NCBI GenBank assembly: GCA_963844715.1
Contig: CAWJPJ010000007.1
Location: 992,001 to 1,056,000 of the forward strand
Direction of reading: 5' to 3'
Length of the DNA stretch: 64,000 nucleotides
Source: an uncultured Phycisphaerales bacterium
GTDB lineage: Bacteria; Planctomycetota; Phycisphaerae; Tepidisphaerales; Tepidisphaeraceae
Shown: in pieces, positions 52,577 to 64,000 of the stretch
Numbering within the stretch: the first letter of the stretch is position 1
Layout: every line of letters begins with the position of its first letter
Notes under the pieces: model-generated
Database searches by the model: none
The model's input: the letters and a program-made list of their open reading frames with translations, nothing else
What the model was told of the DNA's origin: nothing
Program-made: the position numbers and the translations under genes

Positions 52577-54376
52577 ATGACCCGCAATCTTTTCGCCGCG
52601 ATCTTTTGCGCATTTCTTCTGGCGGTCTACGTATCCACAAGCTGGCTAGCCTAGCAATCCAAGGGAATCACATTCGACGAACCCCAGCTTCTCGTCGCCG
52701 CGACGCTTCAAGCCCGGCGGGGCAATTTCGACGCTGACCAGGTCAACCCGCCTTTCTGGAAGGACTATTTCATCCTCGGCAATTCGGCTTCCCGCATGCA
52801 ACTGCCAGATACCGCCGGCGATCTTTCGAACGTCGCGATTTTTCAGGACTATGCCACGCAGACGATCTACGAGACTCCTGCCAACAACGCCCGGTCGCTG
52901 GTGAACTCCGCCCGTGCCCGCATGCTGCCCCTGGCGGTGCTTCTCGGGGCCTTGATCGCCTTCTGGTCTTTCAAGCTGGCAGGCCCGCTTGCGGCTTGTG
53001 TCTCCACCGCGGCCTTCTCCCTCGATCCGAATTTCCTCGCCCATGGCTTGCTGGTCAAAAACGATGTTTCCATCGCCCTCCTGTTCACAGCCTTGATGTT
53101 CACCCTCTGGCGTGTCGGCCGCGCCGCCACTCTCGTCAACTGCTCCGCCCTCGCGCTCCTCCTCGGTGCGACCCTCAACACGAAATTCTCGGGGCTCCTG
53201 GCCATCCCGCTGATCTCCGCCGTGCTTTTTCTCCGCGCCCTCATTCCCGCCGATTGGCGCGTACTGAGGTTGACCGCCGCGACATTCTCCCGGCGTTTCC
53301 TCGCCGCTGCCGCCGTGACGGTCTTCGCGCTCTTCGTCTCGTGGATTTTCGTCTGGGGATCGTATGATTTTCGTTTTCAGCCGGGACCCGGCCAATCTCC
53401 CGATCTCGACAATGCCATTCGCAGCTACTCGATGGCACAAACCATCGCCCTTCACGAATCGGAGTTCTTCGACGCCGACCCCGGCGAATTCCGTGCTTGG
53501 CTCGCCTCCTGGAGGCCGGATTGCCTAATCCAAGCCGTCAAATGGACCGACGCACATCATCTTCTTCCGCGGCCTTATTTGTGCGGGTTTCTATATGCCA
53601 AGGCCGATACCTCTGGCTCCGCGTCGTTTTTCCTCGGGCGGATTGGTCTGGGCGGCTGGTGGCATTACTTCCCCCTGGCAATGGCTTTCAAAACTCCTCT
53701 GGCCACCCTGATCGCCCTCGCCCTGGCCGCGATTCTCTGCTTCTTTTTGCCCCGCCCGCGCAATCCATGGCCTGCTCTGGTCCTTGGTCTCCCTCCAATT
53801 CTTTTCATGCTTGCGGCAATGCGCTCCGGCATGGACGTAGGAATCAGGCATGTCCTTCCCGTTTATCCCTTCCTCTTCGTTCTTCTGGGCATCGCGGCCG
53901 CCCGCGCCGTGCAAAGATTCGGCAAGCCCGTCCTCCTCCTACTGATCATTCTCCTTCTCGCACTCGCGGCCGAAACTTTCGCCGCTTTTCCGGATTACAT
54001 CCCGTTTTTCAACGTCGCTTGCGGCGGCCCACGCGGCGGAGCGCGTCTCCTCGGCGATTCCAACATCGACTGGGGACAGGAACTCCCCGGCCTCGCCAAA
54101 TGGCAAGCTTCTCACACCGACTACCAACTCATGCTCTATTATTTCGGCGCCGCCGACCCGCGCTACTACGGCATCCATTACGTGAACCTCCCCGGCAGCT
54201 TCGCTCCGAAGGATCAAACCAAACCCACCGGCCAAAAACCCTATTGGGCCATCAGCGCCGTCGCCCTCGAAGGCCAATACCTCAACTCCAAAGCGCGAGC
54301 GTTCTACGAACCCTTCCGCCATCGCCAACCCACGCAAATCATCGGCGGCGCCATCTACCTTTACGCGCCTTGGTAG
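52577..54376 (+). CDS. GT-C glycosyltransferase, copy 4 (in-frame TAG at 52652 where paralogues have Trp)
   Basis: MTRNLFAAIFC start in frame with ORF 52796..54376; same motifs as the other copies. Confidence 0.8.
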
Positions 54377-54408
54377 ATCCACCTCGCATCGTCTCGCCAT
54401 CTCCTTCC

Positions 54409-54437
54409 TTGTCCCAATTATCCGGCGCAGTTAGACT
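54409..54437 (+). promoter_or_regulatory. Sigma70-type promoter of GT-C copy 5
   Basis: TTGTCC-17 nt-TAGACT. Confidence 0.7.
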
Positions 54438-54453
54438 CGCTTGAAATCGCTCC

Positions 54454-56262
54454 ATGACCCGCAATCTTTTCGCCGCGATCTTTTGCGCACTTCTCCTGGC
54501 GGTCTACGCATCCACCAGTTGGCTCGCGTGGGAAAGCAAGGGACTCAGTGTTGACGAACCCCTGGGTCTTGTTGCCGCCGTACTTCAGGTCAAGCAAGCC
54601 AATTTCCGTCTCGACGCCGAAAATCCGCCTTTGTGGAAATATTATTTCGTGCTCGGCACGCCGGCCCTGAACATGGAACTCGCCCCTCCGCCCGGGGGTG
54701 ACTCGGACCCCATTCCCTCAACGGTCGGCATCGCCGCCTACGCCGTCAAGGTGATCTACCAAACTCCCGCTAACGACGCGCAAGCCCTGGTGAATCCCTG
54801 CCGCGCCCGGATGCTCTTCCTGGCGGTGCTCCTGGGCGCCGTGATTGCCTTCTGGTCGTTCAAGCTCGCCGGCCCGATCGCCGCCTGTACCGCCGCAGCC
54901 ACCTTCTGTCTCGACCCCAATTTCCTCGCCCATGGCCTCCCCATCAAAAACGATGTCCCCATGGCCCTGCTTTTCACGGCGGTCATGTTTGCCCTCTGGC
55001 GCGTGGGCCGCGCCGCCACCATTCTCAACTGCTGCGCCCTGGCTCTTCTTATCGCCGCCGCCCTCGGCACGAAGTTCAGCGGGCTCCTCGCCCTGGGCGT
55101 CGTCGCGCCCATCCTGGTCCTCCGCGCCGGGATGCCGATCGACTGGCCCGTCCTCAAATACACCGCCCGAACCTTTCGCGCCAAACTCCTCGCCGCCGCC
55201 TCAATTATTATCCTTGCCCTCTTTGTCTCATGGATTTCCATCTGGGCCAGCTACGATTTTCGCTTCGCTCCCCCAGGCGGCACCGATTCCGATTTCCACG
55301 ACGCACTATCCGTCTATGGCGCGTCTCACACCCCGGTCGGCGACAACGTCACCCTCGATTCGCCTCAGGACCAACTCATCAAGCTCGTTGCCCGCTGGAA
55401 GCCCGATCGCGCCGAGCGAGTTGTTCTTTGGCTGAATGCCCATCGCCTCTTCCCGCAGTCTTATCTGACGGGCTATCTCCTGGCCGCCTCCGACAACGCG
55501 GGCCGCTCCTCGTTCCTGGACGGTCACGTCAGTCTGAACGGGTGGTGGTACTACTTTCCTCTGGCGATGCTCTTCAAGACGCCGCTGGCGACCCTCATCG
55601 CTCTCGCCCTCGCCGTCGTCATCTGCTTCGTCGTTCCGCGAAAGCTCGACCGCTGGCTTCTTTACGTCCTCGTGTTCCCGCCTCTTATTTACATGCTCGC
55701 GGCGATGAAATCCGGCATGAACATCGGCATCCGACACATCCTTCCCGTCTACCCCTTCCTATTCATTTTCCTCGGCATTGCCGCTGCCCGCGCATTCCAA
55801 AAATTCGGAAAATACGCGGTTGCCGTCCTGGCCGTTCTTTTGCTCGGACTCGCCGCGGAAACCTTCGCGGCTTTCCCCGATTTTATCCCCTTCTTCAACG
55901 CCGCTGTGGGCGGGGCTCGCGGTGGAGCCCGGCTGCTCAGCGACTCGAACATCGACTGGGGGCAGGAACTGCCCAATATCGCCCGATGGCAACGCGCCCA
56001 TCCGCAATACCAACTCATGCTCAGCTTCTTCGGCTGCGCGGACCCGCGCTACTACGGCATCCGCTACGTCGATCTCCCCGGCAGCTTCGCCCCGGTTGAT
56101 CAACCACGTGACCCCACTCGAACACCCTATTGGGCCGTCAGCGTCATCGCCCTCCACGGCGAATATCTCTTCGCCGGTCCCCGTGCCTACTACGAACCCT
56201 TCCGCCACCGCCAGCCGAAGCAAATCCTCGGCGGGTGCATCTATCTCTACGACTCCCGGTAG
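54454..56262 (+). CDS. GT-C glycosyltransferase, copy 5 (intact, 602 aa)
   Basis: SVDEP after TM1, ENPPLWK, KNDVP, KFSG, GWWYYFP, GIRHILP, DSNIDWGQEL; many TM helices. Confidence 0.88.
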   Translation: MTRNLFAAIFCALLLAVYASTSWLAWESKGLSVDEPLGLVAAVLQVKQANFRLDAENPPLWKYYFVLGTPALNMELAPPPGGDSDPIPSTVGIAAYAVKVIYQTPANDAQALVNPCRARMLFLAVLLGAVIAFWSFKLAGPIAACTAAATFCLDPNFLAHGLPIKNDVPMALLFTAVMFALWRVGRAATILNCCALALLIAAALGTKFSGLLALGVVAPILVLRAGMPIDWPVLKYTARTFRAKLLAAASIIILALFVSWISIWASYDFRFAPPGGTDSDFHDALSVYGASHTPVGDNVTLDSPQDQLIKLVARWKPDRAERVVLWLNAHRLFPQSYLTGYLLAASDNAGRSSFLDGHVSLNGWWYYFPLAMLFKTPLATLIALALAVVICFVVPRKLDRWLLYVLVFPPLIYMLAAMKSGMNIGIRHILPVYPFLFIFLGIAAARAFQKFGKYAVAVLAVLLLGLAAETFAAFPDFIPFFNAAVGGARGGARLLSDSNIDWGQELPNIARWQRAHPQYQLMLSFFGCADPRYYGIRYVDLPGSFAPVDQPRDPTRTPYWAVSVIALHGEYLFAGPRAYYEPFRHRQPKQILGGCIYLYDSR

Positions 56263-56278
56263 ATTCCCGCCCTGTTCC

Positions 56279-56307
56279 TTGTTCCATCTCCTCCGCGCGT
56301 TTAGACT
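56279..56307 (+). promoter_or_regulatory. Sigma70-type promoter of GT-C copy 6
   Basis: TTGTTC-17 nt-TAGACT. Confidence 0.7.
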
Positions 56308-56321
56308 GCCCCAATCGCTCC

Positions 56322-58133
56322 ATGACCCGCAATCAATTCGCCGCGCTTGCCTGCCCCTTTCTGCTCGCCGCTTATGCCGTCACCAGTTGGACCGCCTGGG
56401 AACCCAAGGGGATCACCTTCGATGAACCGGTCCACTTTGTCGCCGCGGCCCTTCAGACGCGCGAATCGAATTTCCGACTCGATCCCGAGAATCCGCCTCT
56501 GTGGAAATATTACCTCGCCGTGGCCAATCCCGGCATGAATCTGAAACTCGACGCTCCTCCCGGCGGCGACTCCGATCCGCTGCCCGAGGATCAAACCGTC
56601 CTCGACTATGCGACGACTGCGCTTTACCGCACCCCCGGAAACGCCGCGGGGCGCTGATTAACTCGGGTCGTGCCCGCATGCTCCCCCTTGCCGTGCTTTT
56701 GGGCGGACTGATCGCTTGGTGGTCCTGGCGACTGGGCGGCGCGATCGCCGCCATTGCCGCCACCGCCGTCTATTCCCTCGATCCCAATTTTCTCGCTCAC
56801 GGCCTCCTCATCAAAAACGACGTACCCGTGACTCTGTTGGTCGTTGCCCTGATGTACGCCGTGTGGCGCCACCGGCCAACGCGCAACCATTCTCAATTGC
56901 CTCGCGATCGGGCTTTTCCTCGCCGCCGCGATCTGCACAAAATTCTCCGGGGTCCTCGCTATTCCTCTTCTGGGCGCCTGTCTTTTCATCCGCGCACTCA
57001 TTCCGACTCCATGGCCGATCCTTCGCCGCACCGCCAAATCGTTCGCCCTGCGCCTCCTTGGCGCAATAGCCATCGGCCTTTTCGCGCTGCTTTTTTCCTG
57101 GCTCTTCATCTGGGCCAATTACGAATTCCGTTACGAACCATCCCGCGGAATGGTGACGACCGACATCGACCACGCCACGCAAATTTACGCCACTACCGAT
57201 ACCGTCGTCCGTTTTAACATCCAGATCGATACTCCGCCCGACGAATTTCACCGTGACATCGCCCTCTGGAAACCGGATCAATTCATTCAATCCATCCGAT
57301 GGGTCGATGCACATCATTTGTTTCCCCAATCGTTTCTCGTGGGTTTCATCTACGCGGCGTCATTTACCAAAGCCCACGCCGCGTTCCTGCTGGGAAAGGT
57401 TGCCTTTCGCGGCTGGTGGTATTACTTCCCCCTCGCTATCGCATTCAAAACCCCGCTCGCAACGCTTCTCGCCCTGGCCCTCGCCATCGGAATGCGTTTC
57501 GCCCTCCCACCCCCGCGCGATCTCTGGCTTCTCACCGTCCTGGTCCTCCCCCCAATCGTCTTCATGGCCTCGATGATGCACTCCGCCCTCGACGTCGGCA
57601 TCCGCCATCTCTTTCCCATCTACCCGTTCCTCTACGTTTTCCTCGGCGTCACCGCCGCCCGGGCGACCGCCAAATTCGGTAAACCCGCGATTGTCATCCT
57701 TGCCCTTCTTTTCCTCGGCCTGGCTGTCGAAACCTACGCCGCGTTTCCCGATTTTATTCCTTTCTTCAATGTCGCCTGCGGAGGCTCGCGCGGCGGCGCT
57801 CGCCTCTTGAGCGACTCCAACATCGACTGGGGCCAGGAACTCCCCGATCTGGCCAAGTGGCAGGCCAACAACACCGACTACCAACTCATCCTCTTCTATT
57901 TCGGCTCCGGCGACCCGCGCTACTATGGCATCCATTACGGAAACCTCCCCGGCAGCTTCGCGCCCCCAGACCAACTTTCTCCCACAGGGCAACGCCAGTA
58001 TTACGCCGTAAGCGTCGTGGGACTCCAACTCGGCCCCTACCTAAGCGGCACCGGCGGCCAAATCTTCGACCCCCTAAGAAAAAAAGACCCCGCCAAAATT
58101 CTCGGCGGCGCCCTATACCTCTACGCCCCATAG
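56322..58133 (+). CDS. GT-C glycosyltransferase, copy 6, frameshifted
   Basis: TFDEPVH, ENPPLWK, DPNFLAHG, GWWYYFP, DSNIDWGQEL. Confidence 0.82.
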
Positions 58134-61444: not shown

Positions 61445-61452
61445 ACAGCGCT

Positions 61453-61555
61453 GGCACAGAGAGCACAGAGAGCACAGAGGACACGGAGAAAGGCCAAATC
61501 TGAGTTTTAAATCTCAATTTTGAATTCTCTCTGTGTCCTCTGTGTCCTCTGTGCC
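61453..61555. repeat. Inverted array of 9-nt CACAGAGRR repeats forming a long hairpin
   Basis: GGCACAGAGAGCACAGAGAGCACAGAGGACACGGAGAA ... TTCTCTCTGTGTCCTCTGTGTCCTCTGTGCC. Confidence 0.85.
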
Positions 61556-61618
61556 AAAGCTTTTGCTTTTCTGCGACTACCCCATTACGATTTCGCCTCC
61601 AATTTTCAAAGGATTTCC

Positions 61619-62638
61619 ATGCCCGCTCCCCTGAAAATGATCTACGAACAGGACGCCCCCCTCGACGCCTTGAAAGGCAAAACCGTCGCCATCCTCGGCT
61701 TCGGGTCCCAGGGGCATGCCCATGGCCTGAACCTGCGCGACTCCGGCGTCAAAGTCATCGTCGCCAATCGCAAGGATTCCCCCAACGGCAAGCTCGCCAT
61801 TCAGCACGGCTTCGATCCGATGTCCGTCGAGGATGCCGTCAAGGCTGCCGATCTGGTCATCGTCACCCTCCCCGACGAAGTGCAGCCCGGCGTTTACGCC
61901 AAAAGCATCGCCCCGCACCTCAAAGCCGGCAAAGCCTTCGGTGCGACCCACGGCTTCAACATCCATTTCAAAACCATCGTCCCCCCCAAGGATGTCGACA
62001 TCGTCATGGTCGCCCCCAAAGGTCCCGGTCATCTCGTCCGCAGCGAATTCGAAAAAGGCGGCGGCGTCCCCTGTCTCCTGGCCGTCCATCAAAACGCCTC
62101 CGGGAAAGGCCGCGACATCGCGCTGGCCTGGGCCCGAGGCATCGGCGGCGCCCGCTCAGGCGTCATCGAAACCTCCTTCAAGGACGAATGCGAAACCGAT
62201 CTCTTCGGTGAGCAAGCCGTTCTCTGCGGCGGTCTCTCCGCCCTTATCAAGGCGGGATTCGAAACGCTCACCGAAGCCGGCTATCCCCCCGAAATGGCCT
62301 ACTTCGAATGCGTCCACGAAGTGAAGCTCATCGTCGATCTCATCTACCAGGGCGGCCTCGATTACATGCGCTACAGCATCAGCAACACCGCCGAGTACGG
62401 CGATCTCACCCGCGGCCCCCGCATCATCACGCCCGCCGTCAAAGCCGAAATGAAAAAAATCCTCGGCGAAATCACCTCCGGTCAATTCGCCAAGGAATGG
62501 CGCGACGAATACGAAACCGGCATGAAAAATTTCAAACGCCTCTACGAACAAGACAACAATCACCCGGTCGAAGTCACCGGCCGGCGCCTAAGAAAAATGA
62601 TGCCCTGGCTAAAAGCCAAAGAACCCCCCAAGTCCTAA
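61619..62638 (+). CDS. ilvC: Ketol-acid reductoisomerase
   Basis: [45 protein letters not shown]. Confidence 0.97.
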
Positions 62639-62650
62639 TCGATTGCGAAG

Positions 62651-62672
62651 CCGGGGGTGCTTGCACCCCCGG
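62651..62672. terminator. Hairpin between convergent ilvC and the TylF gene
   Basis: CCGGGGGTGC-TT-GCACCCCCGG perfect inverted repeat. Confidence 0.55.
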
Positions 62673-62678
62673 ATCCCT

Positions 62679-63315
62679 TCACAACTTGATAATCACCGCC
62701 TGCCCCGTGGGAAAATAGACCGGCCGCTCCGGTTTTTCCCGGAAAAAGTCATCCACCGCCTTTTTCGCCCCCGGACACGAGGGGAAACCGTAATCGTCGA
62801 ATACGATGATTCCCGCCCGATTCATTCGCGGATAAAAAAACTCACAGCAAGCCAGCACCGATGAATAAATATCCACGTCCACATGGACCAGCGCGGAACC
62901 GTCTCCCCTCGATCGCTTCCGCCGTCGCGGGAAACAGCCCTGGATAGATCTTTGCGTTAGGCATATCGGACAAAAACTGTCTCACCGATTCAACCGACGT
63001 GTCCGCGAACTCCCCTGTTTTGTGCCAGTCTTTTTTCGGATCGACGGTCGGCAATCCTTCAAACGTATCGAAGAGGTCAACAATTTTGCCCGATTTGCGC
63101 AACACCGCCGCCAATAGCCGCGCCGTTCCTCCCCGATAGACGCCCACTTCTGCCGCGCCGCCCTCCAGTTTCTCCACGGCCAGGGCGAATTGATAAAGCA
63201 GATACATTCGCCCCGGATCCACCAGACTTCGCGTCTTCGCCTGCGCCAGGAGTGTTCGAAACATCTCGTCCGTCTCCCAGAGCTGTAGTACCCGATGATC
63301 GATCGATTCGCCCAT
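62679..63315 (-). CDS. TylF/MycF/NovP-family O-methyltransferase, frameshift near 62893
   Basis: AEVGVYRGG, FDTFEGLP, HVDVDIY, IVFDDYG. Confidence 0.88.
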
Positions 63316-63330
63316 GCCAAACAGTCTAAC

Positions 63331-63375
63331 AAAAAAAGAAGCCCCGGCGTCTCGAGTGAGAGTCCCCGGGGCTTC
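63331..63375 (-). terminator. Intrinsic terminator closing the structured RNA
   Basis: GAAGCCCCGG...CCGGGGCTTC followed by T7 on the minus strand. Confidence 0.85.
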
Positions 63376-63634
63376 GATTTTAGCCGCAAGCTGCTGCAAG
63401 CAGCCGCGTTCATCGCGGGAGTCTCACCCGCGAAAGCTGCTTACGGCAGCTTGCTCGTACAGTCACAATAGGTCACAGGATCACCTCCATTTCTGACTTG
63501 AGCGGCACAAACGAGGCCGTCTCAAGGGCCACGCCAAGCCGTCACGGAGCCATCGCTCCGCCGCCGGGCTCTCACTCCCGGAAACGCCTTTCCGGAAACG
63601 TCAGACAAGGTCGCCAGGGAGCACTCAGGCGACC
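63331..63634 (-). ncRNA. Putative ~300-nt structured RNA/leader with 11-aa sORF; no family recognised
   Basis: Promoter TTGAAA-18-TAAGAT (63669-63640), multiple hairpins, extended SD and a terminator. Confidence 0.55.
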
Positions 63635-63762
63635 CGCCCATCTTAGCCAAACCGCAGACAAATTTTCAATGACGCGGTTCACGCTTCGCGAGATATTTAG
63701 CGGCGCGTGCCCGGCACCATGTTCCTCTCCCCCGAGCCGCACCCCCCAGCTACAATGAGTTC

Positions 63763-63993
63763 ATGCCTCCACCCCAACTAACCCCCGACCAGATCGATCA
63801 AACCTTCCTCGAAATCCGCTGGCGCACCCTCTCCCTGGGCGCCGATCTGGATCGCCTCGACAGAGCAAGGATAAATGACCCGCGCCGCGAAAAACTGAAA
63901 CAAGCCCTGCGAATACTTTTGGAAGAAAACAGCCCCACGAGAGCCGAGAAAATCCAGCTTCTCCACAGCGACCCCCTGGCAACTGGCAACTAG
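63763..63993 (+). CDS. Small helical hypothetical protein (76 aa), probably leaderless
   Basis: TACAAT 6 nt before ATG; FLEIR...LDRLDRA...DPRREKL amphipathic helices. Confidence 0.7.
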   Translation: MPPPQLTPDQIDQTFLEIRWRTLSLGADLDRLDRARINDPRREKLKQALRILLEENSPTRAEKIQLLHSDPLATGN

Positions 63994-64000
63994 CCGCAGG

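What the first reader, a model, noticed from the sequence alone, without database searches (positions are those of the whole stretch)
63331..63669. Unannotated ~300-nt structured RNA with extended anti-16S SD, 11-aa CxC peptide and terminator/antiterminator pairing
Seen on the minus strand: promoter TTGAAA-18-TAAGAT; 5' hairpin GGTCGCC/GGCGACC; TCTGAC/GTCAGA helix (63600-63605 with 63492-63497) enclosing several hairpins; three loops sharing TGAGA (T-loop-like); AGAAATGGAGGTGATCC, nearly the full complement of the 16S 3' end, with GGAGG 7 nt before GTG; sORF 63476-63441 MTYCDCTSKLP; three more hairpins; a strong terminator. GAGTGAGAG-CCCGG (63577-63564) is complementary to the terminator loop and 5' arm (CCGGG-GA-CTCTCACTC), so a kissing-loop or antiterminator is possible. 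Inference: a new riboswitch or attenuator (Cys- or metal-sensing leader peptide) for the TylF methyltransferase, or a standalone sRNA/peptide gene reminiscent of suhB-type extended-SD RNAs. It has no hallmarks of RNase P, tmRNA, SRP or 6S that I can see.
Basis: partly seen in the sequence, partly recalled or inferred. Interest (0 to 1): 0.75.

Follow-up and report, generated by a model that had tools for sequence, protein, structure and literature searches.

The report
Ribosome-binding mini-mRNA with kissing-loop clamp
This is a free-standing small RNA gene, conserved across many planctomycete bacteria, that carries an unusually strong ribosome-docking site and a tiny reading frame held inside a loop-to-loop clamp, which suggests an RNA that changes shape when a ribosome reads it rather than a switch for the neighbouring gene.

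Summary
The element is real but is not a TylF riboswitch. It is a single-copy, ~300-nt RNA gene with its own promoter and terminator, found in 72 of 120 same-family genomes and, in simpler forms, in other planctomycete families and classes (151 curated homologs). Downstream neighbours vary; TylF occurs once among 47 identified. The antiterminator pairing is unique to this genome and CxC is kept in 50 of 151 peptides. Conserved are an extended Shine-Dalgarno, a GUG start, an in-frame 9-13-codon ORF and a stop inside a 3' rod. This ribosome-binding site is that of the rreB/rreR/CC2171 mini-mRNAs of Alphaproteobacteria (PMC5711450), but Rfam CC2171 scores 21.6 against a cut-off of 75. New here are a covarying 5' domain and a kissing pair between a 5' hairpin loop and the rod: GGCG goes with CGC, GACG with CGU or a second GACG loop, three genomes replace both loops with new complementary ones, and in two the loops swap places. 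Likeliest mechanism (inferred): a parked ribosome leaves the clamp shut; translation to the stop opens it.

The parts
63640..63669 (-). sigma-70-type promoter (-35, 18 nt, -10); predicted start near 63634
   Evidence: promoter-like sites upstream of 77 of 127 homologs scored against 11.5 expected from shuffles
63609..63634 (-). variable 5' hairpin (sequence and number of hairpins differ between homologs)
63576..63597 (-). conserved 5' hairpin P2, 9 bp, with GGCG tetraloop (63588-63585): first half of the kissing pair
   Evidence: 7 of 9 pairs with changes on both sides, 99% of cells paired in 19 sequences
63533..63569 (-). conserved irregular helix P3; carries a 2-150-nt variable insert in homologs, here a short hairpin
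   Evidence: 8 of 12 pairs with changes on both sides; insert lengths
63500..63523 (-). variable hairpin P4 before the SD
63478..63494 (-). extended Shine-Dalgarno: 11 contiguous nt (16 with one bulge) complementary to this genome's 16S 3' tail
   Evidence: 16S tail; the 8-nt core is invariant in alignment A2; lengths
63441..63476 (-). micro-ORF, GUG start, 11 codons, stop TAA at 63443-63441 in the internal loop of the rod
   Evidence: frame kept in steps of 3
63387..63453 (-). 3' rod: two nested helices whose 5' strands overlap the last codons and follow the stop
   Evidence: (5 of 16 pairs with changes on both sides) against (0 of 13 for the local-hairpin reading); MFE
63413..63433 (-). T-loop-like hairpin capping the rod (own family only)
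   Evidence: 4 of 7 pairs with changes on both sides; absent in other families; the T-loop label is from recalled consensus
63406..63412 (-). bulge with invariant ACGC: second half of the kissing pair
   Evidence: invariant columns; partner table
63331..63374 (-). intrinsic terminator
   Evidence: fold; strict terminator-like hairpin in 133 of 151 homologs against 14 of 300 random genome windows
62679..63315 (-). downstream TylF-family methyltransferase gene, in two frames; not part of the element
   Evidence: Pfam PF05711 on both pieces; TylF neighbour only here

Best explanation
A free-standing, single-copy mini-mRNA of the rre type (extended SD, GUG start, micro-ORF, own terminator) in a planctomycete form that adds a folded 5' domain and a long-range kissing clamp. 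Shown by comparison: promoter, terminator, helices P2, P3 and the rod, SD/GUG/frame conservation, independence from neighbours, and complementary co-variation of the two loops. Inferred: the clamp encloses SD and ORF; the long SD duplex and GUG hold a 30S/70S ribosome at the start, which leaves the rod intact because the rod begins 18 or more nt past the start; when the ribosome does elongate to the stop it melts the rod, removes the partner loop and opens the clamp, changing the RNA's fold and probably its stability, as the start codon does for rreB. The act of translation, not the peptide, is the likely signal, so the RNA would report ribosome activity.
For: Fold z -5.8. 72 of 120 same-family genomes, nearly always one match. 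15 of 24 pairs in the 5' domain and 9 of 23 in the 3' module change on both sides, 0 of 500 shuffles as high. GUG in 69 of 71 own-family homologs; the Asp/Asn-Cys hexamer lies at offsets 6, 9, 12 or 15, in frame in 83 of 83 that have it; rod CTG in frame in 107 of 122, at offsets 19-33 apart from two in-frame insertions. Peptides diverge freely between lineages; Cys is TGT 161 times, TGC 17; codons 2-7 are 42% GC against 60%. Loop partners (automatic): GGCG/CGC 75, GACG/CGT 14, GACG/second GACG loop 28, GCCG/CGG 2; wholesale complementary replacements of 4, 6 and 3 WC pairs in L229, L331, L278; loops swapped in L294 and L312. Neighbours vary. The CC2171 model's only match in the whole genome is this locus. 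In four metatranscriptomes from four studies, contigs cover only the element. rreB precedent: 30S binding, weak translation, start-codon-dependent decay (PMC5711450).
Against: No experiment on this RNA; ribosome binding, translation, the kiss and any switch are inferred. Inside the own family the three kissing pairs never vary, so they carry no covariation there; the support comes from a handful of lineage changes and three single genomes, and the automatic table had 5 apparent conflicts and 27 unassigned rows of 151 (the 5 have a GACG hairpin at the homologous place on reading by eye; L246 remains unclear). 15 of 122 homologs have the rod out of frame. The alternative local hairpin over the stop is present in 120 of 126 but shuffles give 95, so a second stable fold is not shown. 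The SD here is 11 contiguous nt, short of the 16-17 of rre. About 40% of same-family genomes gave no match, so it may be dispensable. RNA-library contigs may include DNA, and conserved blocks attract relatives' contigs while the TylF flank cannot.
Confidence: 0.6

Rival explanations
1. The peptide is the product: a small mRNA whose structure only throttles synthesis of a short, often Cys-containing peptide with its own (for example metal- or redox-related) role.
For: Frame is conserved; 106 of 151 peptides have a Cys and a D-C-x-x-G-L pattern recurs in several families; alphaproteobacterial rre peptides also often have an early Cys; Hahn et al. report clade-level peptide conservation.
Against: 45 of 151 lack Cys, lengths run from 6 to 30, in-frame insertions of 12 and 14 residues are tolerated, and the near-exclusive TGT codon and rod-forming Gly-Leu codons point to RNA-level constraint.
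Confidence: 0.15
2. A ribosome-storage RNA: it parks 30S or 70S particles through the long SD, and the loops kiss between molecules to pair or cluster them.
For: Strong SD; GACG tetraloops take part in intermolecular dimer linkage of retroviral RNAs (PMC516450, passages); several relatives' contigs reach depths of 20-95 in metatranscriptomes.
Against: The genome has an HPF-family gene; 20-fold overproduction of rreB did not affect growth and it is far less abundant than ribosomes; contig depth is no measure of abundance.
Confidence: 0.12
3. An untranslated structured RNA (protein scaffold or decoy, for instance standing in for 6S RNA) in which the SD-like block is a binding site, not a ribosome site.
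For: No 6S match in this 85%-complete genome; ornate fold; some frameshifted members.
Against: Fixed SD-to-start spacing (10-11 nt from the core in 150 of 151), GUG/UUG start in all own-family members, indels in multiples of three, AU-rich early codons; fold unlike the 6S rod.
Confidence: 0.08
4. A cis-acting riboswitch or Cys/metal leader-peptide attenuator controlling the downstream gene (TylF here).
For: In this genome the linker can pair with the terminator at -25.1 kcal/mol and TylF starts 16 nt after the terminator on the same strand; 28 of 47 identified neighbours are on the same strand, 5 of them translational GTPases.
Against: That pairing is in 1 of 64 homologs; own pairs average -12.7 against -12.5 for cross pairs; 19 of 47 neighbours are convergent and the rest fall in unrelated families; TylF is in two frames here.
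Confidence: 0.03

Closest known systems
rreB / rreR small mRNAs of Alphaproteobacteria (Hahn et al., RNA Biol 14:1353, PMC5711450)
   Same: Standalone small transcript, SD extended towards the start codon, GUG start, micro-ORF whose peptide is not conserved between clades, terminator, variable neighbours. Some class-level homologs have 16-19 nt of complementarity (19 of 60) and share the first codons' pattern with the alphaproteobacterial RNAs.
   Different: rre RNAs start about 10 nt before the SD (paper); these have a 100-300-nt folded leader with P2 and P3, a rod that starts at codon 7-10 rather than over the start, and a co-varying kissing pair. The window's SD is 11 contiguous nt. The paper reports rre only in four alphaproteobacterial orders.
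Rfam CC2171 (RF01867), Caulobacter sRNA
   Same: Model begins with the same extended SD and GUG and ends in a terminator (alignment); sub-threshold matches on 10 of 20 loci scanned; its only match in this genome is this locus. CC2171 loci encode 14-24-codon ORFs.
   Different: 21.6 bits here, 37 at best, against a cut-off of 75; the middle of the model does not align; no 5' domain. Expression shown, function unknown (bioRxiv 10.1101/2022.01.24.477521, passages).
GACG tetraloops of gamma- and alpharetroviral dimer linkages
   Same: GACG-capped hairpins that join RNA segments (PMC516450, passages); that two such loops kiss through two C-G pairs is recalled, not from a call.
   Different: Structural analogy only; here the pair is within a bacterial RNA and varies (GGCG/CGC, GACG/CGU, longer replacements).
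Leader-peptide attenuators and tmRNA
   Same: Short ORF whose translation would refold an RNA; stop codon inside a helix loop (recalled for tmRNA).
   Different: No conserved downstream gene or antiterminator; has SD and start codon; the genome has a normal tmRNA elsewhere.

Membership tests
rre (rreB/rreR) mini-mRNAs | 16-17 nt of perfect complementarity to the 16S 3' end, reaching the first base of the start codon | tested here: not met
   Window: 11 contiguous nt; own family 6-14; 21 of 151 homologs reach 16 or more, all scored against this genome's tail
rre (rreB/rreR) mini-mRNAs | GTG start 6-7 nt after GGAGG followed by a short ORF | tested here: met
   GTG in 69 of 71 own-family homologs, TTG in 2; ORFs 6-30 codons; the other 80 were partly found with a GTG-containing pattern
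rre (rreB/rreR) mini-mRNAs | Standalone transcript with promoter and terminator, neighbours not conserved | tested here: met
   RNA contigs confined to the element
rre (rreB/rreR) mini-mRNAs | Very short 5' UTR, no leader domain | tested here: not met
   Conserved P2/P3 leader; absent from alphaproteobacterial loci
rre (rreB/rreR) mini-mRNAs | Tight 30S binding, weak translation, start-codon-dependent decay | not testable with these tools
   Shown only for rreB
Rfam CC2171 (RF01867) | Score of 75 bits or more | tested here: not met
   21.6 bits; best homolog 37
Riboswitch / leader-peptide attenuator | Consistent same-strand downstream gene class | tested here: not met
Riboswitch / leader-peptide attenuator | Conserved antiterminator | tested here: not met
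Cys- or metal-sensing leader peptide | Conserved Cys residues or codons | tested here: inconclusive
   CxC in 45 of 71 own-family but 5 of 80 other homologs; any Cys in 106 of 151
tmRNA / RNase P / SRP / 6S RNA | Match to the family model | tested here: not met
   No match in the window; separate tmRNA, RNase P and SRP genes in the genome; 6S not found anywhere in the 85%-complete genome

The most novel reading that the evidence does not exclude
A translation-gated RNA switch kept across much of a bacterial phylum: a ribosome held by an over-long SD sits inside a kissing-loop clamp, and its escape through the micro-ORF unlatches the clamp, turning ribosome activity into a change of RNA shape that is read in trans (partner binding or decay). 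The rre genes of Alphaproteobacteria would be stripped-down members of the same ancient device.
Probability: 0.33. Interest if true: 0.85.

Novelty: new variant of a known kind. Interest (0 to 1): 0.66.

Why it matters
The rre mini-mRNAs are a small unsolved class: conserved, ribosome-bound, function unknown, reported only in Alphaproteobacteria. This finds the same ribosome-binding site in a distant phylum, inside an RNA family missing from Rfam 15, with a structure that says what to test: two loops that co-vary, are replaced together and swap places, one of them set just behind the stop codon. That gives a concrete, mutable mechanism (translation opens a clamp) for a class that had none, and natural variants of interchangeable kissing-loop pairs.

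Tried and rejected
Rfam scans of the window region and of 20 homolog loci: nothing over cut-off at the element. tmRNA, RNase P, SRP, 6S readings (the 6S-Flavo search rang in no control). tRNA-Ala acceptor-stem mimicry of the rod: the G-U pair is not fixed (12 of 18) and is absent in other families; dropped. Antiterminator and TCTGAC/GTCAGA helix. Local three-hairpin reading of the 3' module: pairable but without compensatory change; as a second fold only weakly above shuffles. First frame script used a wrong anchor and was redone. A loose terminator test (145 of 150) also fired on 134 of 300 random windows and was replaced by a strict one. Viral scans: 0 for the own-family pattern; 8 for the general one, being one rreB-like locus and seven ordinary phage gene starts. 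Pattern hits include many chance matches in coding sequence; those fetched were sorted by eye. HPF-replacement idea: HPF is present. Rhodopirellula-1 motif of PMC2864571: rows seen in the supplement show no such SD. Lack of RNA cover over TylF is not taken as evidence, since relatives lack that gene there. The suhB comparison was not pursued in the literature beyond one search.

Full report
Observation. The stretch 63640-63320 folds at -158.9 kcal/mol against -128.7 for shuffles (z -5.8, 0 of 100). The promoter is the only one found in 62500-64000 (0.4 expected). No Rfam 15 family reaches its cut-off; the one match on the element is CC2171 at 21.6 bits against 75. The genome (85% complete) has its own tmRNA, RNase P and SRP genes elsewhere and no 6S match, and holds one copy of the element.

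Conservation. BLAST found it in 19 of 36 same-family genomes; 18 of these have both conserved blocks. A covariance model of the 3' module matched 72 of 120 same-family genomes at E 0.05, a few of them marginal, and 3 of 150 genomes drawn from the phylum; all three proved to be shorter homologs on reading. DNA and pattern searches from there reached other families of the class and other classes. Named records with the own-family form are titled mostly Tepidisphaeraceae, Tepidisphaerales or Phycisphaerales. From the loci printed I kept by eye 151 distinct sequences (71 own family, 60 other families of the class, 20 other classes), dropping truncated loci and pattern matches inside long ORFs. Many planctomycete families gave no true hit in the sample; that is 'not found in those searched'. 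One row of the alignments (L009) comes from the unpublished genome G004; no claim depends on it.

It stands alone. Promoter-like sites lie upstream in 77 of 127 homologs scored (11.5 expected) and strict terminator-like hairpins follow in 133 of 151 (14 of 300 random windows). I scanned 150 downstream ORFs from 76 loci: 47 loci gave a Pfam family, 28 on the same strand and 19 convergent, spread over some 35 unrelated families, TylF once. Here TylF is in two frames. The linker-terminator pairing is strong in this genome (-25.1 kcal/mol) but in no other of 64 (own mean -12.7, cross-genome mean -12.5), and the TCTGAC/GTCAGA helix is likewise not kept (own -3.6, cross -3.2). The riboswitch or attenuator reading therefore fails.

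Expression. Ten of 20 listed runs holding part of the stretch are RNA libraries. In four of them, from four studies, 2, 17, 35 and 45 contigs lay on 62700-64000, almost all between 63360 and 63623; listed contigs are 60-412 nt; one matches 63435-63597 without a difference. This is a hint of a discrete small transcript in many relatives, not proof: these are contigs, DNA may be present, and conserved blocks attract relatives.

Secondary structure. In 19 own-family sequences, hairpin P2 and irregular helix P3 have 15 pairs changed on both sides, 98% of cells paired, 0 of 500 shuffles as high and slid controls far lower. P3 carries an insert of 2 to about 150 nt. The 3' module is a nested rod with a T-loop-like cap (9 of 23 pairs changed on both sides); the three-hairpin reading is pairable but shows no such change in its two own helices.

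The reading frame. The start is GTG in 69 of 71 own-family homologs and TTG in 2; spacing from the SD core is 10-11 nt in 150 of 151 (the 80 outside the family were partly found with a GTG pattern). The conserved Asp/Asn-Cys hexamer lies 6, 9, 12 or 15 nt after the start, in frame in 83 of 83 that have it; the rod's CTG is in frame in 107 of 122. ORFs are mostly 9-13 codons (range 6-30). The peptide is not conserved across lineages: CxC in 50 of 151, no Cys in 45; Cys is TGT 161 times and TGC 17; codons 2-7 are 42% GC in a 60% GC window. This fits selection on being translated and on the RNA, more than on the peptide, though Cys is common enough that a peptide role stays open.

The clamp. In the own family the P2 loop GGCG and a rod bulge ACGC are invariant, which alone proves nothing. 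Across lineages they change together. The automatic table gives GGCG with CGC 75 times, GACG with CGT 14, GACG with a second GACG loop 28, GCCG with CGG 2, five apparent conflicts and 27 unassigned of 151. Reading the five conflicts, each has a GACG hairpin at the homologous place; three unassigned rows are GGCG with CGC; L246 is unclear. GGCG/CGC appears in four separate groups, including L362, whose relatives have GACG/CGT. Three genomes replace both loops with new complementary ones, giving 4, 6 and 3 consecutive Watson-Crick pairs (L229, L331, L278). In L294 and L312 the 7-nt loop found on the rod of other lineages sits on P2 and the GACG loop on the rod. Kin are not independent, so the support is these few events, but they point one way. 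GACG loops are known from retroviral dimer linkages (PMC516450, passages); the two-pair kiss itself is recalled.

Mechanism (inferred). The clamp joins the leader to the rod around SD and ORF. The rod's 5' strand begins 18 or more nt after the start, beyond the roughly 16 nt an initiation complex covers (established knowledge), so a ribosome held by the long SD and GUG can wait without disturbing it. Elongation to the stop, which lies in the rod a few bases before the inner helix, must melt the strand that presents the partner loop. A competing hairpin over the stop can form in 120 of 126 homologs, but shuffles give 95, so a second stable state is not shown. An HPF gene is present, which weakens a pure storage role.

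Known relatives. CC2171 matched 10 of 20 loci below cut-off; the alignment shows only SD, GUG, first codons and terminator in common, and its sole match in this genome is this locus. CC2171 loci in four alphaproteobacterial genomes carry 14-24-codon ORFs right after the promoter. These are the rre type of Hahn et al. (PMC5711450; I read the abstract and parts 1-4 of 5 of the text, not the supplement): 17-nt SD, GUG, 30S-bound, weakly translated, half-life 10 min rising to 37 without the start codon, function unknown, found in four alphaproteobacterial orders. A metagenome scan returned both architectures side by side, leaderless rre-like and leader-plus-clamp, and 50 mixed genomes gave 9 SD matches, among them a bare 6-codon version in a record titled Acidobacteriota. 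The window's RNA works like rre but fails two defining features (SD length, no leader), so I file it as a variant, not a member.

Literature. Ten full-text searches and passage look-ups in bioRxiv 10.1101/2022.01.24.477521, PMC10117765, PMC11109978, PMC10783764, PMC516450 and PMC2864571 with its supplements found no description of a planctomycete RNA of this kind; subscription papers and unread supplements (PMC5711450, PMC11109978) could hold one. Earlier scan notes, looked up last, report rre-type RNAs in other lineages; they are unchecked leads.

Verdict. Real, conserved, standalone, outside Rfam; a new structured variant of the rre mini-mRNAs with comparative evidence for a kissing clamp tied to the stop codon. 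Interest 0.66.

Noticed in passing
window 62679-63315 (-): The TylF-family gene is in two frames, each piece matching PF05711; pseudogene or assembly error. It sits between the RNA and the convergent ilvC, where the same-genus genome has no gene (L002).
   Followed up: partly
window 52796-58133 (+): Three tandem, similar membrane glycosyltransferase-like ORFs (label from recall); the third appears broken into several frames.
   Followed up: no
window 61445-61575: A long imperfect inverted repeat between the DHH gene and ilvC that draws many sub-threshold miRNA matches; probably an interspersed repeat.
   Followed up: no
window 63763-63993 (+) and L001 upstream: A divergent 76-aa ORF without Pfam match followed by a TatD-like hydrolase (label from recall); this divergent neighbour recurs in several own-family loci.
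   Followed up: no
L006, L009, L011-L013, L015 and others, insert in helix P3: An optional 85-130-nt sub-domain with AGUA/GAA strands resembling a loop E motif (recalled) and a segment complementary to the SD core; absent in the window's copy.
   Followed up: no
L007, L039, L040, L045, L228: A translational GTPase gene (EF-G-like in L007) follows the RNA on the same strand in 5 of 47 identified neighbours; synteny or a link to translation.
   Followed up: no
L208, L196, L200: Natural deletion variants: L208 keeps SD, ORF and rod but lacks P2/P3; L196 and L200 keep the rod but lack SD and start.
   Followed up: partly
L321:1500-1580: A minimal version (extended SD, GUG, 6 codons, terminator) in a genome titled Acidobacteriota.
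   Followed up: no
L409, L414, L422, L445, L472; L440, L461: Further leaderless extended-SD micro-ORF families in metagenome contigs (18- and 20-codon types) distinct from the common alphaproteobacterial-like type.
   Followed up: no
genome G000: No 6S RNA match in the 85%-complete assembly.
   Followed up: no
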